A stretch of DNA of 5,162 nucleotides from a virus (taxonomy: Duplodnaviria > Heunggongvirae > Uroviricota > Caudoviricetes). Positions 1 through 5,162 of the stretch are shown piece by piece. The position numbers were made by a program, and so were the translations under genes. Where the stretch lies: IMG/VR virus record IMGVR_UViG_2541047790_000010. One strand, given 5' to 3'. The notes below the pieces were generated by a model. It was given only the letters and a program-made list of their open reading frames with translations. It ran no database searches and was not told the origin of the DNA. Within the stretch, counting starts at the first letter, position 1. The number at the start of each line of letters is the position of its first letter.

Positions 1-1413
1 AGGACTGGCCGGCAAACCGGGTACGCGATCTGTTGCCCTGGAAAGTTGATCTGAGCTCTCAGTAAATATCAATACGGTTCTGACGAGTCGCTTACTTCTG
101 TCCGGTTTACACAGCGAGATATATTCCATCAGGAATGCTCTGGCCATGCCGTTAATGTTGATGTAAGAAAGCCCGTTAACCAGCAGAACGCGGCGCAGTT
201 CTTCCCCGCTACCGCCCAGCATCTCCATCGGCATTGCCCATTTACGGCTGTTTCCGTTGGTATCTTCCCATTCCAGCAAACGCCCGTAATTACTTCCATC
301 AGCATCACTGGTGATTGCCGTCACCCGCAACGGACTGCAAATTTTGATATTACGTATCTCTGTATCACCATCAGACTTATTAACCAGCTTGTCGTACCAC
401 AAATATTCTTTTGTCAGCCGGAACCCTTCTGGTAAACGGGTCTGCCCTTTGCCATGCAGCGTCATTTCTTCACGAAAGGCATCTCTCGCCCGTTCTTTCC
501 CCACTTCCTGCCGATAATCATCCCAGTCAGCCTTATGGCGTACCGGAGGGAGCGTTACCCAGCCATCCACCGCTTTGGCGGCTTTCTCTGCCTGAATACG
601 CCCGGTGTTTTCTTTGCCGTCAGCCAGATCATTATCTCCGGCCAGAATGATCCGGGTTTCCGGCCAGCGTTTTCGGATCTGCTCCGTCACCTTCAGTAAA
701 TTGGTGGCAGCGACAGCCGCCACGATCCATCCTTCAGTCAGCAGACTGACGGTAAGCGCCGTGGCAAAACCCTCAGTGATAATCACCTGTTCAGGTGTTT
801 CAGCGGGTATATCGGTCAGGGCAATGAATGCGCCAGACAGCTGGCTACCGGGCAGCAGACTTTTATCCCCGTCAGGATTGATAAGCTGGCCACCAGTAAT
901 ATTCCCGGAAATATCCGTCAAAGGCAGCAGTAATGAACCGGTGGAAAATGTTATTCCGGCCAGATTCAAAGGCTGTGACAGCAAGGGAAGTGAATACCCG
1001 TGTAAGCTCTTATTTGTCAGATAGACCGGCTCACCATTGCAGGACTGCTGTCTGAGTCTGGTATATCGCTCCGCGCCCGCTTCTTTTCCTGCGGCCTTTT
1101 TCCTGGCTGGCAATGCGGGCTTCTCCTGTATTTCTGGTAATGCAAGCGCCTCAGATACCATCCCGGCGACTTCTTTTATCTTTCTTCCTGTCACCAGACG
1201 AACCAGATCAAGACCATCGCCATGACCGCACTGATTACAAAACCACGTCCCTCGCCCCGCTTTATCGTCCAGTCGAAAACGATCTTTTCCACCACAGGCA
1301 GGGCAAGCCCCATGATGTCCTGCGGACGGTACTTTAATACCTAATGCTGACAGGATATAAGGCCAGCGCCCAATTGCAGCTCCGGAAATCGTGGATACAG
1401 ACGGTGTTTTCAC
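1..1413 (-). CDS. P4 alpha-type DNA primase, N-terminal 471 codons (zinc-ribbon + Toprim + DUF927-like region); 3' end truncated by window edge
   Basis: Open frame with no stop from 1413 down to position 1. GTG start at 1411-1413 overlaps the upstream TGA (GTGA), with AGGAGG (revcomp of 1421-1426) 7 nt upstream. Translation has a four-Cys zinc ribbon (HHGACPACGGKDRF...WFCNQCGHGDG), a Toprim-like glutamate (IITEGFATAL) and DxD (ILAGDNDLADG), then a segment (LEWEDTNGNSRKWAMPMEMLGGSGEEL) resembling the region after Toprim in phage/satellite primases. No ATG-initiated minus ORF was in the ORF track because the stop lies outside the window. Confidence 0.85.
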   Translation of the reverse strand, partial: MKTPSVSTISGAAIGRWPYILSALGIKVPSAGHHGACPACGGKDRFRLDDKAGRGTWFCNQCGHGDGLDLVRLVTGRKIKEVAGMVSEALALPEIQEKPALPARKKAAGKEAGAERYTRLRQQSCNGEPVYLTNKSLHGYSLPLLSQPLNLAGITFSTGSLLLPLTDISGNITGGQLINPDGDKSLLPGSQLSGAFIALTDIPAETPEQVIITEGFATALTVSLLTEGWIVAAVAATNLLKVTEQIRKRWPETRIILAGDNDLADGKENTGRIQAEKAAKAVDGWVTLPPVRHKADWDDYRQEVGKERARDAFREEMTLHGKGQTRLPEGFRLTKEYLWYDKLVNKSDGDTEIRNIKICSPLRVTAITSDADGSNYGRLLEWEDTNGNSRKWAMPMEMLGGSGEELRRVLLVNGLSYININGMARAFLMEYISLCKPDRSKRLVRTVLIFTESSDQLSRATDRVPGLPASP

Positions 1414-1820
1414 AGCAGCACCTCCTGACCTTCCGGCTTCACAAATTCAAAACCTTCGGGTAGTTCGCCATCAGGTGCTCCGAAAATAATATCCCGGTAA
1501 ACCTCACGCATCTCTGTGACACCAAAAACTGACAGGCGAATATTTTCTGACATAAAGCCTGGTTTAAGCATTTTTTCCAGTTTCTCTGCGGCCAGTATGC
1601 AACCAGCATCAGCCCCAAACTCATTCACCCACGGCATTTCAATATGGTAAATAATATTACTCACCACTTTTTCGTGGGAGAGTTCTATTCGTTCGCCATC
1701 TTCAATATAAACAGGTTCATTATGAACACGCACCATTAAGGAAATGAATGCATCAGCAATGTAGTAGCGTAAGACTGCTGTTCGTAAAGCATGCGCCTTT
1801 AAATTTTGATTATTATTCAT
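1410..1820 (-). CDS. Hypothetical protein (136 aa), operon member immediately upstream of primase
   Basis: ATG at 1818-1820 with AGGGAG about 9 nt upstream. Start overlaps the stop of the upstream 78-aa gene by 8 nt, and the stop overlaps the primase GTG start. No family recognised from sequence. Confidence 0.6.
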   Translation of the reverse strand: MNNNQNLKAHALRTAVLRYYIADAFISLMVRVHNEPVYIEDGERIELSHEKVVSNIIYHIEMPWVNEFGADAGCILAAEKLEKMLKPGFMSENIRLSVFGVTEMREVYRDIIFGAPDGELPEGFEFVKPEGQEVLL

Positions 1821-2049
1821 CGCGCATCACTCCCTTAATTGTGCTGGTTTCCTTAACAACGCCATCCAGTTGTTCGGCAATACAGGCCACTAAAGCCGCA
1901 GCGCCTTCCGCTGAAACAGTTCTCGCTCCATTCACTGTGGGCACGGACAAGACCTCTGCAAGAAACTCACTGGCCAGTGCCGCCCGTAACAGACGACTCT
2001 CCCCCTGTTCACTCAATATGCAGCCTTGCTTAAAATTCATGGATTTCAT
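1813..2049 (-). CDS. Hypothetical small protein (78 aa)
   Basis: ATG at 2047-2049 overlaps the stop of the upstream 67-aa gene (ATGA). GGAGGTG 6-7 nt upstream (revcomp of 2056-2062). Alternative in-frame ATG at 2040. No family recognised. Confidence 0.55.
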   Translation of the reverse strand: MKSMNFKQGCILSEQGESRLLRAALASEFLAEVLSVPTVNGARTVSAEGAAALVACIAEQLDGVVKETSTIKGVMRDE

Positions 2050-2249
2050 GCAACCACCTCCCCGGCTCTTTTCACAGGGATACGGGCAGCAAAGCTCAGG
2101 ATAAATTCAGTGGCAAGTTTAAGGCGTGCAGCATGCTCGCATTCTGCGATTACACGCACAGGGCGTGGACGGGCATCACGGTCTGTACGGCGGACAGCCA
2201 GAAAGACAAAGGTAAATTCAGGGTGAGATAAAGCAGGGACTGTAGCCAT
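2046..2249 (-). CDS. Small protein (67 aa), first gene after the immunity leader; candidate Icd-like (P1 immI-type) protein
   Basis: Internal in-frame ATG (2247-2249) of the 196-aa ORF 2046..2636, chosen because GGAGG (revcomp of 2258-2262) sits 8 nt upstream and the upstream part of the long ORF runs through terminator and RNA-structure sequence. Icd-like assignment is by position downstream of a C4-type RNA locus and by memory of how such islands are annotated, not by alignment. Confidence 0.5.
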   Translation of the reverse strand: MATVPALSHPEFTFVFLAVRRTDRDARPRPVRVIAECEHAARLKLATEFILSFAARIPVKRAGEVVA

Positions 2250-2257
2250 AATGGCAA

Positions 2258-2302
2258 CCTCCTTCAGATAGCGGGTAACGCTACCACCGGAGTTCCTACG
2301 CT
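2258..2302 (-). promoter_or_regulatory. Candidate antisense-RNA target site 2 (bipartite blocks) overlapping the Shine-Dalgarno of the 67-aa gene
   Basis: Minus-strand sense contains GCGTAGGAAC (plus 2292-2301) and TATCTGAAGG (plus 2261-2270). The second block runs into the SD (TATCTGAAGGAGG). Both 10-mers recur identically at 2501-2526. Confidence 0.45.
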
Positions 2303-2309
2303 CATGGGT

Positions 2310-2385
2310 GGTAGCCCAGACGGGGGTAGGAATACCGGCTCTGAAGGATACCGGCCAGCCCGAAAGCTGCCCCGCCTGGACTACC
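2310..2385 (-). ncRNA. Candidate C4/CI-type antisense immunity RNA (about 76 nt, structured)
   Basis: Minus-strand RNA 5'-GGUAGUCCAGGCGGGG...CCCCCGUCUGGGCUACC-3' forms a 16-bp closing stem (14 Watson-Crick + 2 G-U) between plus 2370-2385 and 2310-2326. Inside are a CAGC/GCUG hairpin (2356-2369) and a CCGG/CCGG hairpin (2335-2354) whose 12-nt loop carries UCCUUCAGA, followed by single-stranded UUCCUAC. These two segments are complementary to the two blocks of both target sites. Confidence 0.45.
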
Positions 2386-2469
2386 ATAATTCTGATGATG
2401 TGGCGTAAAAAATAAAAAAATACAATCAGCCACCACACCATAAATTTTAGGTGAGTCAAAGCTGCGACA

Positions 2470-2493
2470 CAAAAAAACACGCCTAGCGCGTGT
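2470..2493 (-). terminator. Intrinsic terminator-like hairpin with U7 tail inside the leader
   Basis: Minus-strand ACACGC-GCUAG-GCGUGU (6-bp stem, 5-nt loop; plus 2477-2493) followed directly by a run of 7 U (plus A-run 2471-2477, sharing one base with the stem). Lies 8 nt downstream of target site 1. Confidence 0.5.
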
Positions 2494-2500
2494 AGTATCG

Positions 2501-2526
2501 CCTTCAGATAACACGGGTTCCTACGC
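2501..2526 (-). promoter_or_regulatory. Candidate antisense-RNA target site 1 (upstream copy of the bipartite motif)
   Basis: Minus-strand sense GCGTAGGAAC (plus 2517-2526) and TATCTGAAGG (plus 2501-2510) separated by 6 nt. Same two 10-mers as site 2, where the spacing is 21 nt. Confidence 0.4.
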
Positions 2527-2555
2527 CCGGCTGCCGATTTTGCGGCAACCTTTAA

Positions 2556-2585
2556 ACTATATCCCGCGCATTCCTGGTGAGGCAA
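2556..2585 (-). promoter_or_regulatory. Candidate sigma70 promoter for the leader/immunity transcript
   Basis: Minus strand TTGCCT (plus 2580-2585), 18-nt spacer, TATAGT (plus 2556-2561). A second, weaker candidate (TTGTGT-17-TAAAAT, -10 at plus 2444-2449) lies between the leader terminator and the structured RNA. Sequence resemblance only. Confidence 0.3.
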
Positions 2586-2688
2586 GAAATTTATAACCGA
2601 AAACTGATCATTGCCTGGATTAATTAACGCTGGCATGCTTAAGCCTCTGCTTAAAAATAGTTCTTCATTTTTCCTGATGCTGTAAACG

Positions 2689-2710
2689 AGACCCGCCTCT
2701 GAGCGGGTCT
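2689..2710 (-). terminator. Stable hairpin 14 nt after the capsid-gene stop; possible terminator or RNA-stability element
   Basis: GACCCGC-CUCUGA-GCGGGUC (7 G/C-rich bp plus a flanking A-T pair; plus 2690-2709). The U-tract is poor in both orientations (plus: TTTCT; minus: CGTTTACA), so termination efficiency is uncertain. Confidence 0.35.
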
Positions 2711-2723
2711 TTCTGTCGCTAAG

Positions 2724-3728
2724 TCAATCCGCAAACGTCAGGGTGCACTCATCAACAGCCGCGTACAGTTCAGGTTCACCGAGTGCATAACCTTCATTGC
2801 GCAGGTAGGAATGCACGTATTCACTGCTTTCATCATCAAACTCAGCACGAAACCAGCGTGTTATCGCCTGAGTGTAAATATGCAGATTATCCAGCGTCGT
2901 TACTGCCAGACGCTTACCCGGCATAAACGGGGGAATAAACGCAAAGCGGCCAGCAACAGAACTTGTAGCCATCTGTGCCGCATTCACATCAGACGGGCGG
3001 TCTGCGGCATTAAATAACTTCAGGCGTTGATGTGCTGCCAGCTCTGCCCCAACCAGTACAACCAGACGAGGATCTTCACGAAACTGCTCAGCAATAAGCT
3101 CTGTAATCAGATGGTTGGCCAGAGCATCAATATTTTTCCAGGTGCCAGTCTCTCCCAGAGTGACAGGCTCAGAGATGATTTGCTTTCCGTTCCCGTAGGC
3201 TTTCGCCAGTGCATGCCAGCCAATATTGACATCCTCGCCTTTTTTATTGATTTCCGGGTTTGTAGTATTTGCAATCGACACACCGTTGAAACCGACCCGC
3301 AGCATGTCCAGCGCATATGCCTGGGCAAAAAAGCTCTCAACCGTTTTCTCAAACTCATCCGGCACGCCGGTATGGTAAATATGAGACATATCGGAATAGC
3401 TGATCCGGGCGCAGGTATCCGTCTCTGTCAGAAAGAACTCCGTACCATTGATTGCCATTTTTTTGTGGAAACGGCCACCATCCACACGTCCGGTATACAG
3501 TTCACTGGCACCAATATTGACGGCATTACCTGACACGGCGTTAACATCACGTAGGGTAATATTTTTAATAAGCCACCCGGATTCCAGAATTGAGGTACGC
3601 AGTATATTTTCAGTAGGTTCGCTTAATGCAAAGCGTCTGTTTGATTCTTCCTGATAGTTAGTGCCAGTGACGAATTTATTATGATAACGACGTGCTGCGT
3701 CCGGCCTTTCAGTTTTGAAGGCATACAT
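2724..3728 (-). CDS. Major capsid protein homologue, P2 gpN family (334 aa)
   Basis: ATG at 3726-3728 with AAGGTGA about 8 nt upstream. Translation matches my recollection of P2 gpN in several blocks: FALSEPTENIL...ESGWL, LRVGFNGV, NIGW, IDALANHLITELIAEQFREDPRLVVLVGAELAAHQ, and TLDNLHIY near the C-terminus. Similarity is judged from memory of gpN, not computed. Confidence 0.8.
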   Translation of the reverse strand: MYAFKTERPDAARRYHNKFVTGTNYQEESNRRFALSEPTENILRTSILESGWLIKNITLRDVNAVSGNAVNIGASELYTGRVDGGRFHKKMAINGTEFFLTETDTCARISYSDMSHIYHTGVPDEFEKTVESFFAQAYALDMLRVGFNGVSIANTTNPEINKKGEDVNIGWHALAKAYGNGKQIISEPVTLGETGTWKNIDALANHLITELIAEQFREDPRLVVLVGAELAAHQRLKLFNAADRPSDVNAAQMATSSVAGRFAFIPPFMPGKRLAVTTLDNLHIYTQAITRWFRAEFDDESSEYVHSYLRNEGYALGEPELYAAVDECTLTFAD

Positions 3729-3750
3729 AGTTTTTCACCTTTTTAAGTAT

Positions 3751-4611
3751 TTAAGAAAAGATTTTATTTTTGTACTCAGTAACCAGATTGTATTTCATTA
3801 CATGCTCAACATAATCCCGGTCACTTACGACTGAACGTAATACATAATTATCTGCTCGATAGTACTCCCTGTAAGCCATAGCTCTTGCCATTCCACCGTT
3901 ATTTAATACATAACGATCAGTTGGAACGCTACAACGACTAATAATTTCACTCACGGAATCAGATAAAGACTTGAGTGCATCAGTAATAAATTTAATATCA
4001 CGGACAACGTCACTGTCATTAAATACAGAAATAAAATCAGCAGGGATCTGGCCGGATTGAGGAAATATATTCAGTAAACGCTTATCGATTCCCTTCCCAA
4101 TGTAGTTTCCTTCATCGGCCAGTACTCCCGGCAAAAGCTTGATCGTGCTCAATCGACTATGTTGTTCATTCAACCGGGAAACAGCCAGATGGTAATACCG
4201 TTCAGCATCCGCTCGTTCAGCATGCCCCATTTTATTCGTTTTGGCTTCAGCAATGCTACTGACGCCGTTTTTTGAGAATGTGCTTTTCCATGCAACTTCC
4301 GCATTTGTCACTTCACGCTGCCGGAAAGATAACTCTTCCTCTTCCTGACGACACAACTGGGCATAACGGCTCAGGAGCAGGTTGATCTCATTCGCCACAG
4401 TTTCCGTATCAGGTACTGTTAACCCCGTAAGTGAATACAGCTTTTCACCTTTAGCTCGCAGCTTATTCAGTGAATATATTTCAATAATACGCACAATACA
4501 GGCCGTGTCGCTATGAGTCTCTTTAAATGATCTTACTTTGTAACTATCTAACACCGACACATGTTCGTTCTTAATTGATGCCAATTTCTTCTTAAAAACA
4601 TTGTCAACCAT
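3751..4611 (-). CDS. Hypothetical protein (286 aa), orphan, A+T-rich; function unknown
   Basis: ATG at 4609-4611 with GAGGTGG 9-10 nt upstream; 17 nt after the alpA stop and 22 nt before the capsid start, so probably co-transcribed. No recognisable catalytic motif, Walker A or transmembrane stretch. Charged, probably helical middle segment (LCRQEEEELSFRQREV...). Visibly A+T-richer than the capsid and primase genes. Confidence 0.7.
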   Translation of the reverse strand: MVDNVFKKKLASIKNEHVSVLDSYKVRSFKETHSDTACIVRIIEIYSLNKLRAKGEKLYSLTGLTVPDTETVANEINLLLSRYAQLCRQEEEELSFRQREVTNAEVAWKSTFSKNGVSSIAEAKTNKMGHAERADAERYYHLAVSRLNEQHSRLSTIKLLPGVLADEGNYIGKGIDKRLLNIFPQSGQIPADFISVFNDSDVVRDIKFITDALKSLSDSVSEIISRCSVPTDRYVLNNGGMARAMAYREYYRADNYVLRSVVSDRDYVEHVMKYNLVTEYKNKIFS

Positions 4612-4628
4612 ATATTTGCCACCTCAAT

Positions 4629-4856
4629 TTAGGAGTTTAATTTTCTATTGAGAATATTCTTCTCTATCCATTCATTAACTTCATGCTCCACCCATGCAAC
4701 AGAACGAGAACCGATAGAAACTTGGTTCGGAAATTCATCATTCTTTATCTTTAGATAAATTGTTGACTTGGGTAAGCCAGTCAAATTAATCACTTCTGAT
4801 ATTCTCAGAAGTCTATATCTTTTTTGGGGTGCGTTTTCCCGAGGCAATAAGCTCAT
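4629..4856 (-). CDS. alpA: AlpA-family (P4 Vis-like) helix-turn-helix transcriptional regulator / excision-control protein (75 aa from ATG)
   Basis: Translation KRYRLLRISEVINLTGLPKSTIYLKIKN...SIGSRSVAWVEHEVNEWIEKN follows the AlpA pattern (RxLRLxxVxxxTGxxxSTIY...GxRSVxWxExEIxEW). The ORF-track start at 4871 is a GTG; the ATG at 4854-4856 has AAGGA 8 nt upstream and is preferred. Confidence 0.85.
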   Translation of the reverse strand: MSLLPRENAPQKRYRLLRISEVINLTGLPKSTIYLKIKNDEFPNQVSIGSRSVAWVEHEVNEWIEKNILNRKLNS

Positions 4857-4987
4857 GGCTATGTCCTTCACATTAGATATTTATACTAAGACTTAATTAG
4901 TCTCTATTGGGTGTATATATACTTGCACAGAAGAATTAATACGTAAAGACTGGCACTTTCAAACTCATTCAAAGAATTTGAATACTA

Positions 4988-5018
4988 AATAATGGTGAAT
5001 AATAGTTAATAATGGTGA
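4988..5018. repeat. Two copies of an 11-bp direct repeat AATAATGGTGA with 20-bp periodicity; candidate operator/iteron
   Basis: Exact copies at 4988-4998 and 5008-5018 in the A+T-rich region upstream of alpA. A small inverted repeat AGACT-N5-AGTCT (4889-4903) lies nearer the alpA start, overlapping a TATAAA -10-like element (minus-strand sense; plus 4880-4885). Confidence 0.5.
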
Positions 5019-5128
5019 GTATTACTGAGTGACAACCTTTGCCAATGCTTGTTAATCTCTGATAATAATGAAATTTGACGAATAATATATGTAACAATTT
5101 GTAAACTAAAGACTGCATTAGGTTTGTT

Positions 5129-5162
5129 GGGGCTGGGCTGGGCTGGGCTGGGCTGGGCTGGG
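5129..5162. repeat. Pentanucleotide tandem repeat (GGGCT)n, at least 6 units, running off the window edge
   Basis: GGGGCTGGGCTGGGCTGGGCTGGGCTGGGCTGG directly visible; an abrupt change from the preceding A+T-rich sequence. Full length unknown because the window ends inside it. Confidence 0.9.

What the first reader, a model, noticed from the sequence alone, without database searches (positions are those of the whole stretch)
2724..3728. Lone P2-gpN-type capsid gene in an AlpA/primase satellite backbone, without scaffold, portal or terminase in view
Canonical P4 has no capsid gene; it remodels the helper capsid with Sid. Here a full-length gpN-family homologue sits between alpA and the immunity/replication module, flanked by an orphan gene and a non-coding region, not by gpO, gpP or gpQ homologues. 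It could be a satellite-encoded capsid variant that co-assembles with or replaces the helper capsid protein to set capsid size or exclude helper genomes, or a remnant of a mosaic event.
Basis: partly seen in the sequence, partly recalled or inferred. Interest (0 to 1): 0.6.

Follow-up and report, generated by a model that had tools for sequence, protein, structure and literature searches.

The report
Phage satellite with own capsid gene
The window is part of an 11-kb P4-related phage satellite at the E. coli argW tRNA gene that has no Sid or Psu but carries its own conserved P2-family capsid gene next to an uncharacterised helical partner gene, an arrangement shared by satellites across the Enterobacterales and absent from the literature I could search.

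Summary
Window 2724-3728 (-) encodes an intact 334-aa P2-family (HK97-fold) major capsid protein. The complete island is 11,009 bp from att to att and has no portal, terminase, full scaffold or tail gene.

The gene is not a mosaic remnant. Satellite capsid proteins from 23 loci (22 species) form one clade nested inside capsid proteins of Quadragintavirus-like Peduoviridae. They are about 48% identical to phage ev015 and about 25% to P2 gpN. dN/dS is about 0.1.

The gene is not really alone. An orphan all-helical protein of about 286 aa lies immediately upstream in every satellite with enough sequence. In half of the satellite loci a protease-only gpO fragment follows the capsid gene. Sid, Psu and epsilon are absent.

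All satellites with enough sequence carry a conserved cos-like element whose invariant core coincides with the physical genome ends of ev015. This points to that phage group, not P2, as the helper.

Best reading, inferred rather than shown: a late alpA-partner-capsid operon makes satellite-specific small capsids, while portal, terminase and tail come from the helper. A Ccm-like co-assembly with helper capsid protein is the main rival.

The window's own copy is damaged by an IS66 element in the primase gene.

The parts
2724..3728 (-). Satellite major capsid protein, 334 aa, P2 family (HK97 fold).
   Evidence: PF05125 E 9.5e-67. PHROG 70. The AF2 model matches gpN 7jw1 and 7oz4. It belongs to a monophyletic satellite clade. 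dN/dS is 0.07-0.13. RRF|A at residues 31-34 aligns with the P2 gpN KKF|T gpO cleavage site (PMC7552001).
3751..4611 (-). Conserved orphan partner protein ('hyp286'), 286 aa, all alpha-helical. It is the candidate satellite scaffold or size determinant.
   Evidence: It lies immediately upstream of the capsid gene in every satellite locus with enough sequence. It has no Pfam, PADLOC, NCBIfam or PDB sequence match. Only 53 clusters match in 1.84 billion representative proteins. AF2 gives pLDDT 87.7 and pTM 0.81, with long helices. hhalign against Sid, Psu, the gpO-type scaffolds and TermS gives probabilities below 1%. dN/dS is 0.15-0.27.
4629..4871 (-). AlpA/Vis-type regulator and first gene of the alpA-hyp286-capsid unit. 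RefSeq starts it at the ATG at 4856.
   Evidence: PF05930 E 6e-20. It is 45% identical to P4 orf88. The gaps to the next genes are 17 nt and 22 nt.
4912..4929 (-). TGT-N12-ACA dyad about 65 nt upstream of the alpA ATG. It has the form of a possible Ogr/Delta-type late promoter element.
   Evidence: It is the only such dyad in the window, but chance expectation is 1.24. It is conserved only in the closest relative, L005. This is a weak lead.
2689..2710 (-). GC-rich hairpin 14 nt after the capsid stop codon, terminator-like, closing the alpA-hyp286-capsid unit.
   Evidence: 9-bp stem, -17.5 kcal/mol, z -3.6. The U-tract is weak, and the terminator scan did not call it.
2472..2562 (-). isrK sRNA and the a1/b1 target sites of the C4 antisense RNA (P1/P4-type RNA immunity leader). 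A promoter-like site lies at 2585-2556.
   Evidence: Rfam RF01394 68.9 bits and RF03163 43.8 bits. Promoter scan.
2304..2391 (-). C4 / P4 CI-type antisense immunity RNA.
   Evidence: Rfam RF01695, 81.1 bits against a gathering score of 45.
2046..2636 (-). Annotated 196-aa 'Icd-like / Ash' ORF. It overlaps the RNA genes above and is homologous to the P4 'cI ORF' region.
   Evidence: PF10554 E 3e-32. 58% identity to the P4 cI ORF translation. dN/dS is 0.36-1.4.
1410..2049 (-). Two small conserved satellite ORFs of 78 aa and 136 aa. The 136-aa one is weakly like P4 orf106 / DUF5375.
   Evidence: PHROGs 38507 and 5991. DUF5375 E 0.076. Both are conserved in satellites.
96..1413 (-). The N-terminal approximately 439 codons of the primase-helicase (Zn-ribbon, Toprim, DUF927). 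The gene is truncated at position 96.
   Evidence: Pfam domains on the intact 895-aa protein. 38% identity to the P4 alpha primase domain. The junction was mapped.
1..95 (+). Right end of an ISCro1-like IS66 element that interrupts or deletes the satellite here.
   Evidence: 100% identical to L002 12001-12095, beside the IS66 transposase gene. The same 95 bases occur in many Stx phages.
5130..5162 (+). Start of a (GGGCT)n pentanucleotide array that lies between alpA and attR.
   Evidence: About 14 units at L001 19035-19104. The sequence is shown.

Best explanation
Shown: the window belongs to an 11-kb integrative satellite related to P4. The shared features are an AlpA/Vis regulator, C4/CI-type RNA immunity, an alpha-like primase domain, an Ogr/Delta activator, a cos-like site beside a defence-gene hotspot, and a tRNA-specific integrase. 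The Sid-Psu capsid-size genes are absent. In their place is a tight three-gene unit, alpA, a 286-aa helical orphan and a P2-family capsid protein, placed upstream of the immunity region. The capsid gene was captured once, long ago, from a Quadragintavirus-like member of the Peduoviridae, and has been kept intact ever since. The cos-like site matches the genome ends of that phage group.

Inferred: when such a helper is induced or infects, the satellite is activated and expresses the partner and the capsid protein. The partner acts as a satellite-specific scaffold or size determinant in place of the gpO C-terminal scaffold domain. The satellite capsid protein then assembles small (probably T=4) shells sized for 11 kb. 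It is processed at RRF|A by a gpO-type protease, which is satellite-encoded in the Yersinia, Pectobacterium, Xenorhabdus and Proteus branch and helper-encoded in the E. coli branch. The helper supplies portal, terminase (acting on the shared cos), head completion proteins and tail. A side effect would be exclusion of the 30-kb helper genome.
For: - Full-length capsid homology and HK97 fold. 103 conserved alignment columns are shared with the phage capsid proteins.
- Purifying selection: dN/dS is 0.07-0.13 for the capsid gene and 0.15-0.27 for the partner.
- The 23 satellite capsid proteins are monophyletic and nested among phage capsid proteins. Satellite-to-phage identity is 39-53%, and 44-50% even for a co-resident phage, so there has been no recent exchange.
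- Contexts split cleanly. 28 loci have primase, Icd/Ash, the partner and usually ogr/Delta, but no TerL, portal, TermS or sheath. 54 loci have the full phage set.
- The partner is always adjacent upstream.
- A Phage_GPO fragment covering profile positions 3-139 of 268 (protease domain only) follows the capsid gene in 12 of 24 satellite loci. A protease without the scaffold domain implies that something else provides the scaffold.
- The first ~33 residues (N-arm; 10 satellite-conserved and 14 phage-conserved columns there, 4 of them alike), the part removed by gpO in P2, are conserved among satellites but differ from the phages. The cleavage motif is retained (PMC7552001).
- No Sid, Psu or epsilon is found in any locus.
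- The element is 11,009 bp against 30,584 bp for ev015, a ratio of 0.36, much like the P4-to-P2 ratio.
- A ~165-nt cos-like element is conserved in all satellites with enough sequence. Its invariant core CTACACCGCACCCGCCTGC coincides with the ev015 genome termini.
- A satellite and a Quadragintavirus-like prophage occur in the same genome in at least 6 species.
- The satellite Ogr/Delta is 51% identical to the helper-type Ogr.
- Precedent: Ccm of SaPIbov5 is a satellite-encoded capsid homologue that redirects capsid size (PMC8569155).
Against: - No expression, particle or transduction data exist for this element.
- The role of the partner rests only on its position, its helical nature and the protease-only fragment in relatives. 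It has no detectable homology to any scaffold, Sid or Psu. Its model is a compact bundle (pTM 0.81) rather than an obviously extended scaffold.
- The E. coli branch has no protease of its own.
- The late-promoter dyad is not conserved in the family.
- ev015-like prophages occur in only 29-48 of 5426 complete E. coli genomes, against 440 with the satellite. Many carriers, including the ST131-type strains, may simply inherit an element that is rarely mobilised.
- The window's own copy has a disrupted primase.
- Nothing here distinguishes a shell made only of satellite protein from a mixed shell.
Confidence: 0.5

Rival explanations
1. Ccm-like co-assembly. The satellite capsid protein does not build shells alone. 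It enters helper-protein shells at particular positions, for example the pentamers, and biases them towards a small T number. The 286-aa protein would have some other role.
For: This is the direct precedent: SaPIbov5 Ccm, a capsid-protein homologue, occupies the pentamers of T=4 procapsids (PMC8569155). The capsid core is well conserved with the phage proteins, with 103 shared conserved columns, so mixed lattices are plausible. The E. coli branch lacks its own protease and must rely on helper gpO, which enters shells through helper scaffold-capsid contacts (PMC7552001).
Against: Half of the satellite loci carry their own protease domain and all carry a dedicated partner. Neither is needed if the helper scaffold-protease organises the shell. 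The N-arm is remodelled in a satellite-specific way. Satellite capsid proteins do not track the co-resident helper capsid proteins (44-50% identity).
Confidence: 0.27
2. Interference only. The protein is a dominant-negative capsid subunit, a poison or decoy, that blocks assembly of invading P2-family phages and so protects the host or the satellite. It has no role in building satellite particles.
For: Satellites of this kind carry anti-phage cargo: sce7725/sce7726 (beta/cII-like) in E. coli and Kiwa in Providencia. The satellite is far commoner in E. coli than its presumed helper. Capsid redirection by P4 and SaPIs does reduce helper yield (PMC6893505).
Against: The gene is not in the variable hotspot. 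It sits in the conserved core next to alpA. The full-length fold, the retained cleavage motif, the accompanying protease domain and the conserved cos all point to productive morphogenesis. There is no PADLOC match.
Confidence: 0.12
3. Decaying remnant. The gene is a leftover of a recombination between a P2-family prophage and a P4-like island, is not under selection and has no function.
For: The window's copy of the island is damaged by an IS66 element. In E. coli the island is largely clonal, with many copies 99-100% identical.
Against: The ORF is intact in hundreds of clusters and in 22 species. dN/dS is about 0.1. The clade is monophyletic with a constant gene order from Escherichia to Xenorhabdus and Providencia.
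Confidence: 0.03

Closest known systems
Satellite P4 (helper P2), with Sid external scaffold and Psu decoration
   Same: Size of about 11 kb and integration at a tRNA gene. Shared parts: AlpA/orf88 regulator (45% identity), C4/CI RNA immunity, orf106-like ORF, alpha-type primase domain (38% identity over the N-terminal ~320 residues), Ogr/Delta activator, cos next to a defence hotspot with beta/cII-like (sce7725/sce7726) genes, and a genome about one third the size of the helper's.
   Different: It has no sid, psu or epsilon. It carries a capsid gene and an orphan partner placed between alpA and the immunity region. The helicase part of the primase is DUF927 rather than the P4 type. The cos-like region found no match in the P4 record. 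The capsid lineage and cos point to Quadragintavirus-like helpers.
SaPIbov5 Ccm (cos-type SaPI; helper phi12)
   Same: A satellite that has no portal or terminase yet encodes a diverged homologue of its helper's HK97-fold capsid protein, which changes capsid size (PMC8569155, PMC5052747).
   Different: The backbone (PICI), host (Staphylococcus) and capsid lineage are unrelated. Ccm converts prolate capsids to isometric ones. Here there is a dedicated helical partner and, in relatives, a protease domain. Function is untested here.
Capsid-forming PICIs (cf-PICI) and enterobacterial PICIs with a capsid-like gene (EcCICFT073, PmCI172)
   Same: Satellites with an int-alpA-primase backbone that encode capsid-fold proteins (PMC10085698, PMC6893505, bioRxiv 10.1101/2022.09.08.507074).
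   Different: cf-PICIs also encode portal, protease, head-tail connectors, TerS and TerL. None of these is present here apart from a protease fragment in relatives. The PICI capsid genes are not reported as P2-family, and those PICIs carry TerS/Rpp, which is absent here.
P2 gpN / gpO morphogenetic module and Quadragintavirus ev015 scaffold-capsid-TermS module
   Same: Same protein family and fold. The basic-basic-Phe cleavage context is retained. The protease domain in relatives is 49-56% identical to the N-terminal half of the ev015 scaffold.
   Different: Identity is only about 25% to gpN and 48% to ev015. The N-arm is different and the C-terminus is 6-10 residues shorter. The gene order is changed, with the partner upstream and the protease downstream. 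The scaffold C-terminal domain, TermS, TerL and portal are absent.

Membership tests
P2-family major capsid protein (PF05125 / TIGR01551) | Sequence match above the curated threshold over the full length. | tested here: met
   Pfam 225.8 bits against a cut-off of 27, covering profile positions 16-326 of 327. However, the NCBIfam equivalog TIGR01551 scores 204.6 bits, below its 219.65 cut-off. It is a family member but not an 'equivalog' by NCBI's rule.
P2-family major capsid protein (PF05125 / TIGR01551) | HK97 fold with N-arm, E-loop, spine helix, P domain and A domain. | tested here: met
   The AF2 model has pTM 0.82. The best PDB matches are gpN 7jw1 (E 1e-23) and phiRSA1 7oz4.
P2-family major capsid protein (PF05125 / TIGR01551) | N-terminal maturation cleavage by a gpO-type protease. 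| tested here: inconclusive
   NRRF|ALSEP aligns with gpN SKKF|TVEPS, which is cleaved between residues 31 and 32 (PMC7552001). Cleavage itself is not testable here.
P2-family major capsid protein (PF05125 / TIGR01551) | Forms the shell of a virion. | not testable with these tools
   This needs particle purification and proteomics or cryo-EM.
P4-like satellites (SatelliteFinder core: Int, AlpA, alpha, Ash/epsilon, Delta, Sid, Psu) | Integrase, AlpA-type regulator, alpha primase, Ash and Delta. | tested here: met
   Tyrosine integrase at tRNA-Arg, PF05930, Zn-ribbon/Toprim 38% identical to P4 alpha, PF10554, and PF04606. SatelliteFinder itself was not run.
P4-like satellites (SatelliteFinder core: Int, AlpA, alpha, Ash/epsilon, Delta, Sid, Psu) | Sid and Psu capsid-hijacking proteins. 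| tested here: not met
   tblastn finds no hit in any of 24 satellite loci. The 286-aa partner shows no profile similarity to Sid or Psu. By the published scheme it would be at best a Type C variant lacking both (PMC10085698).
P4-like satellites (SatelliteFinder core: Int, AlpA, alpha, Ash/epsilon, Delta, Sid, Psu) | cos site shared with the helper, and RNA-based (CI/C4) immunity. | tested here: met
   C4 RNA at 81 bits. A conserved cos-like element coincides with the ev015 genome ends. The helper type differs from P2.
Capsid-forming PICI | Own portal, head-tail connectors, TerS and TerL in addition to the capsid protein. | tested here: not met
   None is present in the 11-kb element or in any satellite locus.
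Ccm-type size redirection (SaPIbov5) | A satellite-encoded homologue of the helper capsid protein, in an element lacking portal and terminase. | tested here: met
   48% identity to the ev015 capsid protein, and no packaging genes.
Ccm-type size redirection (SaPIbov5) | The homologue is incorporated at the pentamers and is required for small capsids. | not testable with these tools
   This requires genetics and cryo-EM.

The most novel reading that the evidence does not exclude
These elements are a distinct, widespread class of P4-related satellites that stand between P4 (no capsid genes) and cf-PICIs (a complete head and packaging set). They would build the whole small shell from their own capsid protein, organised by a new kind of scaffold or size determinant (the 286-aa orphan family) and in some lineages matured by a stand-alone gpO protease domain. 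Only portal, terminase and tail would be taken from Quadragintavirus-type helpers.
Probability: 0.4. Interest if true: 0.8.

Novelty: new variant of a known kind. Interest (0 to 1): 0.62.

Why it matters
P4 is the textbook case of capsid piracy by an external scaffold. This family would show that the same backbone can solve the same problem by owning a capsid gene and a new partner protein. That gives a natural intermediate for asking how satellites gain or lose structural genes.

It also names a probable helper group and a cos site for an island carried by hundreds of sequenced E. coli genomes, including O25:H4 strains, and by many other Enterobacterales. Its hotspot carries anti-phage systems (sce7725/sce7726, Kiwa), so the way it moves bears on how defence genes spread.

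The 286-aa family has no known relatives and is a well-defined target for structural work on capsid-size control.

Published satellite surveys define P4-like elements by a core set that includes Sid and Psu. They may therefore under-count this group or file it as an incomplete variant.

Tried and rejected
- **Exhaustive HMM search.** A search of 1.84 billion representative proteins found only the family itself, 53 clusters.
- **Late promoter.** The single TGT-N12-ACA dyad upstream of alpA is at chance frequency and is not conserved beyond the closest relative.
- **Hidden morphogenesis genes.** None was found inside or beside the island.
- **Prophage fragment.** This reading is rejected by the att-to-att size and the gene content.
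- **cos in co-resident phage loci.** This could not be checked, because the fetched ±10-kb phage loci do not reach cos.
- **Artefact.** One dN/dS value (L008-L009 capsid gene, dN 0.73) came from my codon alignment and is discarded. The two proteins are 89% identical.
- **Literature.** Searches for P4-like satellites with capsid genes, for the RefSeq protein accessions, and inside six of the satellite and defence-island papers opened found no description of this arrangement. The library does not hold most subscription-journal papers.
Full report
**Observation.** The window has an ATG-initiated ORF of 334 codons at 3728-2724 on the minus strand.
- It matches Pfam PF05125 (Phage_cap_P2) at E 9.5e-67 over profile positions 16-326 of 327, and PHROG 70 'major head protein' at E 1.8e-86.
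- An AlphaFold2 model built on 38 homologues (pLDDT 82.6, pTM 0.82) has the HK97 elements. Its best PDB matches are gpN in the P4 procapsid (7jw1, E 1e-23) and the phiRSA1 capsid (7oz4).
- One qualifier applies. The protein is only about 25% identical to gpN of P2 or 186, and it falls just under NCBI's equivalog cut-off for TIGR01551 (204.6 against 219.65 bits).

**Where the window comes from.**
- Bases 96-5162 are 100% identical to an island in many E. coli chromosomes. 440 of 5426 complete genomes hold at least 80% of the window.
- In strain SK1144 the island lies between tRNA-Arg and dsdC. It is bounded by a 20-nt direct repeat (ATTCCTGCAGGGGACACCAT) spaced 11,009 bp apart.
- Its genes, in order, are: integrase, sce7725 and sce7726 family proteins, an Ogr/Delta zinc-finger protein, an 895-aa primase-helicase (Zn-ribbon, Toprim, DUF927), ORFs of 136 and 78 aa, an 'Icd-like/Ash' ORF, the capsid gene, a 286-aa hypothetical protein, and AlpA.
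- Window bases 1-95 are the end of an ISCro1-type IS66 element joined to about codon 439 of the primase gene. This particular copy is damaged, although its capsid gene is intact.

**Relation to P4.** Compared with the P4 record, the island shares:
- an orf88/AlpA homologue (45% identity) and a translated match to the old 'cI ORF' region (58%);
- a primase domain 38% identical to P4 alpha;
- an Ogr/Delta protein and a sce7726-family protein, which is how RefSeq now names P4 cII. PADLOC also calls the island's protein 'cII'.

Rfam finds a C4/CI-type antisense RNA (2304-2391, 81 bits), isrK (2472-2549) and the a1/b1 targets (2510-2562) inside the annotated 196-aa ORF. That ORF has dN/dS of 0.36-1.4, as expected if much of it is RNA genes. 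tblastn finds no Sid, Psu or epsilon in any of 24 satellite loci. The backbone is therefore P4-related, but the P4 capsid-hijacking genes are missing.

**The capsid gene is an old, maintained satellite gene.**
- A word-indexed search found 601 homologues. The top hits, of 330-339 aa, come from Escherichia, Salmonella, Enterobacter, Cronobacter, Kosakonia, Yersinia, Serratia, Pectobacterium, Xenorhabdus, Providencia and Proteus.
- I fetched 80 loci from a collection with one genome per species. I scored them by tblastn with markers from the island and from two Peduoviridae phages.
- The loci split cleanly into two groups. 28 loci carry primase, Icd/Ash, the 286-aa homologue and usually ogr/Delta, AlpA and integrase, with no TerL, portal, TermS or sheath. 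54 loci carry the full phage set.
- In a neighbour-joining tree rooted on Salmonella phage SI7, the 23 satellite capsid proteins are monophyletic. They are nested among capsid proteins of Quadragintavirus-like phages.
- Satellite-to-phage identity is 39-53%. It is 44-50% even for a phage resident in the same genome, so there has been no recent exchange.
- For pairs with unsaturated dS, dN/dS is 0.07-0.13 for the capsid gene, 0.15-0.27 for the 286-aa gene and 0.04-0.08 for the primase. One aberrant pair was an alignment artefact.
- 'Remnant of a mosaic event' is therefore rejected.

**The gene is not alone.**
- The 286-aa ORF (window 3751-4611) lies 22 nt upstream of the capsid gene and 17 nt downstream of alpA. 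A homologue at 22-94% identity occupies the same place in every satellite locus with enough sequence.
- It has no match in Pfam, PADLOC, NCBIfam or PDB sequences.
- An exhaustive profile search of 1.84 billion representative proteins finds only 53 clusters, mostly 276-308 aa, the remainder short fragments and one 886-aa protein.
- Its AF2 model is confident (pLDDT 87.7, pTM 0.81) and entirely helical, with helices of 41, 32 and 28 residues.
- Fold searches give only generic helical-bundle or coiled-coil matches. Profile comparisons with P4 Sid, Psu, the ev015 and SI7 scaffolds and TermS give probabilities below 1%.
- In the Yersinia, Pectobacterium, Brenneria, Rahnella, Xenorhabdus, Proteus and Providencia branch, a 173-177-aa ORF overlaps the capsid stop codon. 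It matches only the N-terminal peptidase part of Phage_GPO (profile positions 3-139 of 268, E 1.5e-40) and is 49-56% identical to the ev015 scaffold.
- In P2, gpO residues 1-141 are the protease and residues 195-284 the internal scaffold (PMC7552001). These satellites therefore carry the protease without the scaffold domain.
- The E. coli branch has neither. Only 87 nt separate the capsid gene from the next ORF. They contain a 9-bp GC-rich hairpin (2689-2710, -17.5 kcal/mol, z -3.6).

**What distinguishes the satellite capsid protein.**
- In an alignment of 23 satellite and about 50 phage proteins, 103 columns are conserved and identical in both groups. 22 columns are conserved but differ between the groups.
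- Apart from these 22 substitutions scattered through the core, the systematic differences are at the ends. The first ~33 residues follow one consensus in satellites (PdaAr.fH..fT.g) and another in phages (LN.rAR.fl..y.aGLA..yG). The phage proteins also extend 6-10 residues further at the C-terminus.
- The HMMER alignment to gpN places satellite N30-R-R-F33|A34 opposite gpN S28-K-K-F31|T32. The gpO protease removes the first 31 residues of gpN, and the extreme N-terminus forms a helix at the inner trimer interfaces of the procapsid (PMC7552001).
- So the part that differs is the part that lies inside the procapsid and is removed at maturation, while the cleavage context is kept.

**Helper and packaging site.**
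- The nearest phage proteins are those of Escherichia phage ESSI2_ev015 (Quadragintavirus, 30,584 bp, 48% identity) and Salmonella phage SI7 (42%). Both have the usual scaffold-capsid-TermS and TerL-portal modules.
- A non-coding stretch between sce7726 and ogr/Delta (L001 about 11714-11878, outside the window) is colinear with the joined ends of the ev015 record. Its first 17 bases, GCACCCGCCTGCGGTTT, are identical to one terminus. The preceding bases match the other terminus, which in the record is followed by a Nextera adapter and so is a physical end.
- The same element of about 165 nt lies 200-450 nt beyond ogr/Delta in every satellite locus long enough to contain it, at 68-81% identity. 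It has an invariant core CTACACCGCACCCGCCTGC and conserved TTTCAG/CTGAAA repeats.
- That search found no match in the P4 record.
- A satellite and a Quadragintavirus-like prophage occur in the same assembly in at least six species: Brenneria populi, Siccibacter colletis, Xenorhabdus vietnamensis, Candidatus Erwinia dacicola, and two metagenome-assembled genomes.
- The size ratio of 11.0 to 30.6 kb (0.36) is close to that of P4 to P2.
- In E. coli the presumed helper is rare, in 29-48 of 5426 genomes. Many carriers probably just inherit the island.

**Mechanism.**
- What is shown: a conserved alpA-partner-capsid unit; a P4-type backbone without Sid or Psu; a helper-type cos; and a protease-only gpO fragment in half of the satellite loci.
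- What I infer: the unit lies upstream of the immunity promoter and RNAs, the position that orf88 and the late promoter PLL occupy in P4 (the PLL layout is from my own knowledge of P4, not a tool result). It would therefore be expressed when the element is activated.
- The helical partner would then replace the gpO scaffold domain, or act like Sid, as the size-determining scaffold for the satellite's own capsid protein. Shells sized for 11 kb would be matured by a gpO-type protease, and filled and tailed by helper proteins.
- The single TGT-N12-ACA dyad upstream of alpA (4912-4929) has the form of an Ogr/Delta site, but it is at chance frequency and is not conserved in the family. I do not rely on it.
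- The main rival is Ccm-like co-assembly with the helper capsid protein (PMC8569155). An interference-only role is a weaker rival, because the gene sits in the conserved core and not in the variable defence hotspot, and has no PADLOC match.

**Comparison and novelty.**
- The element works like P4 in its overall design and like SaPIbov5 in owning a capsid homologue. It fails the Sid/Psu criterion of the published P4-like model (PMC10085698) and the portal, connector and terminase criteria of cf-PICIs.
- I found no description of this arrangement in six of the satellite and defence-island papers I opened, nor in full-text searches that included the RefSeq accessions. The library is incomplete, so earlier description elsewhere cannot be excluded.
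- I rate it a new variant of a known kind. It is of real interest to specialists, with a testable mechanism but no experimental support yet.

Noticed in passing
window 1-95 and junction at 96: The end of an ISCro1-like IS66 element is fused to about codon 439 of the primase gene. In this strain the primase C-terminal half, the iterons, ogr/Delta and part of the cos-like region are deleted or displaced, so this copy is probably not mobilisable.
   Followed up: partly
L002 (NZ_CP082775.1) about 9396-12096: In E. coli O25:H4 strain CU568-3 the same IS66 sits inside the cos-like element, with an 8-bp duplication (cos positions 154-161 occur on both sides).
   Followed up: partly
window 2046-2636: The RefSeq 'host cell division inhibitor Icd-like protein' ORF of 196 aa overlaps the Rfam C4 antisense RNA, isrK and the a1/b1 targets, and has dN/dS of 0.36-1.4. 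Much of it is probably RNA genes rather than coding sequence, like the historical P4 'cI ORF'.
   Followed up: partly
window 5130-5162 (L001 19035-19104): A (GGGCT)n pentanucleotide array of about 14 units lies between the alpA upstream region and attR. Its function and its variability between strains are unknown.
   Followed up: no
L001 12463-12598: Direct repeats containing TGTTACC(TCTGTTACCAGT) lie between ogr/Delta and the end of the primase gene. They resemble P4 crr/ori iterons.
   Followed up: no
L003 (LR597649.1) bases about 30-48: The deposited genome of phage ESSI2_ev015 begins with residual Nextera adapter sequence (the reverse complement of CTGTCTCTTATACACATCT). This marks a physical DNA end but is a contaminant in the record.
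   Followed up: yes
L022, L047, L062: Assemblies titled Vagococcus sp. WN89Y, MAG Bacillota bacterium and MAG Bacillales bacterium carry enterobacterial satellite or phage DNA. L047 is 95-99% identical in protein to E. coli phage ev015 (78% for the scaffold). They are probably contaminated or mislabelled.
   Followed up: no
L001 9543-11396; L086 16322-17914: The variable region between the cos-like site and the integrase holds sce7725/sce7726 (P4 beta/cII-like; PADLOC 'cII') in E. coli and Kiwa KwaA/KwaB in Providencia. It therefore behaves as a defence hotspot, as in P4-like satellites.
   Followed up: partly
MCP alignment: Satellite capsid proteins are more divergent among themselves (median 56% identity) than the phage capsid proteins from a similar range of hosts (median 72%). 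This suggests faster evolution after capture, despite dN/dS of about 0.1.
   Followed up: no
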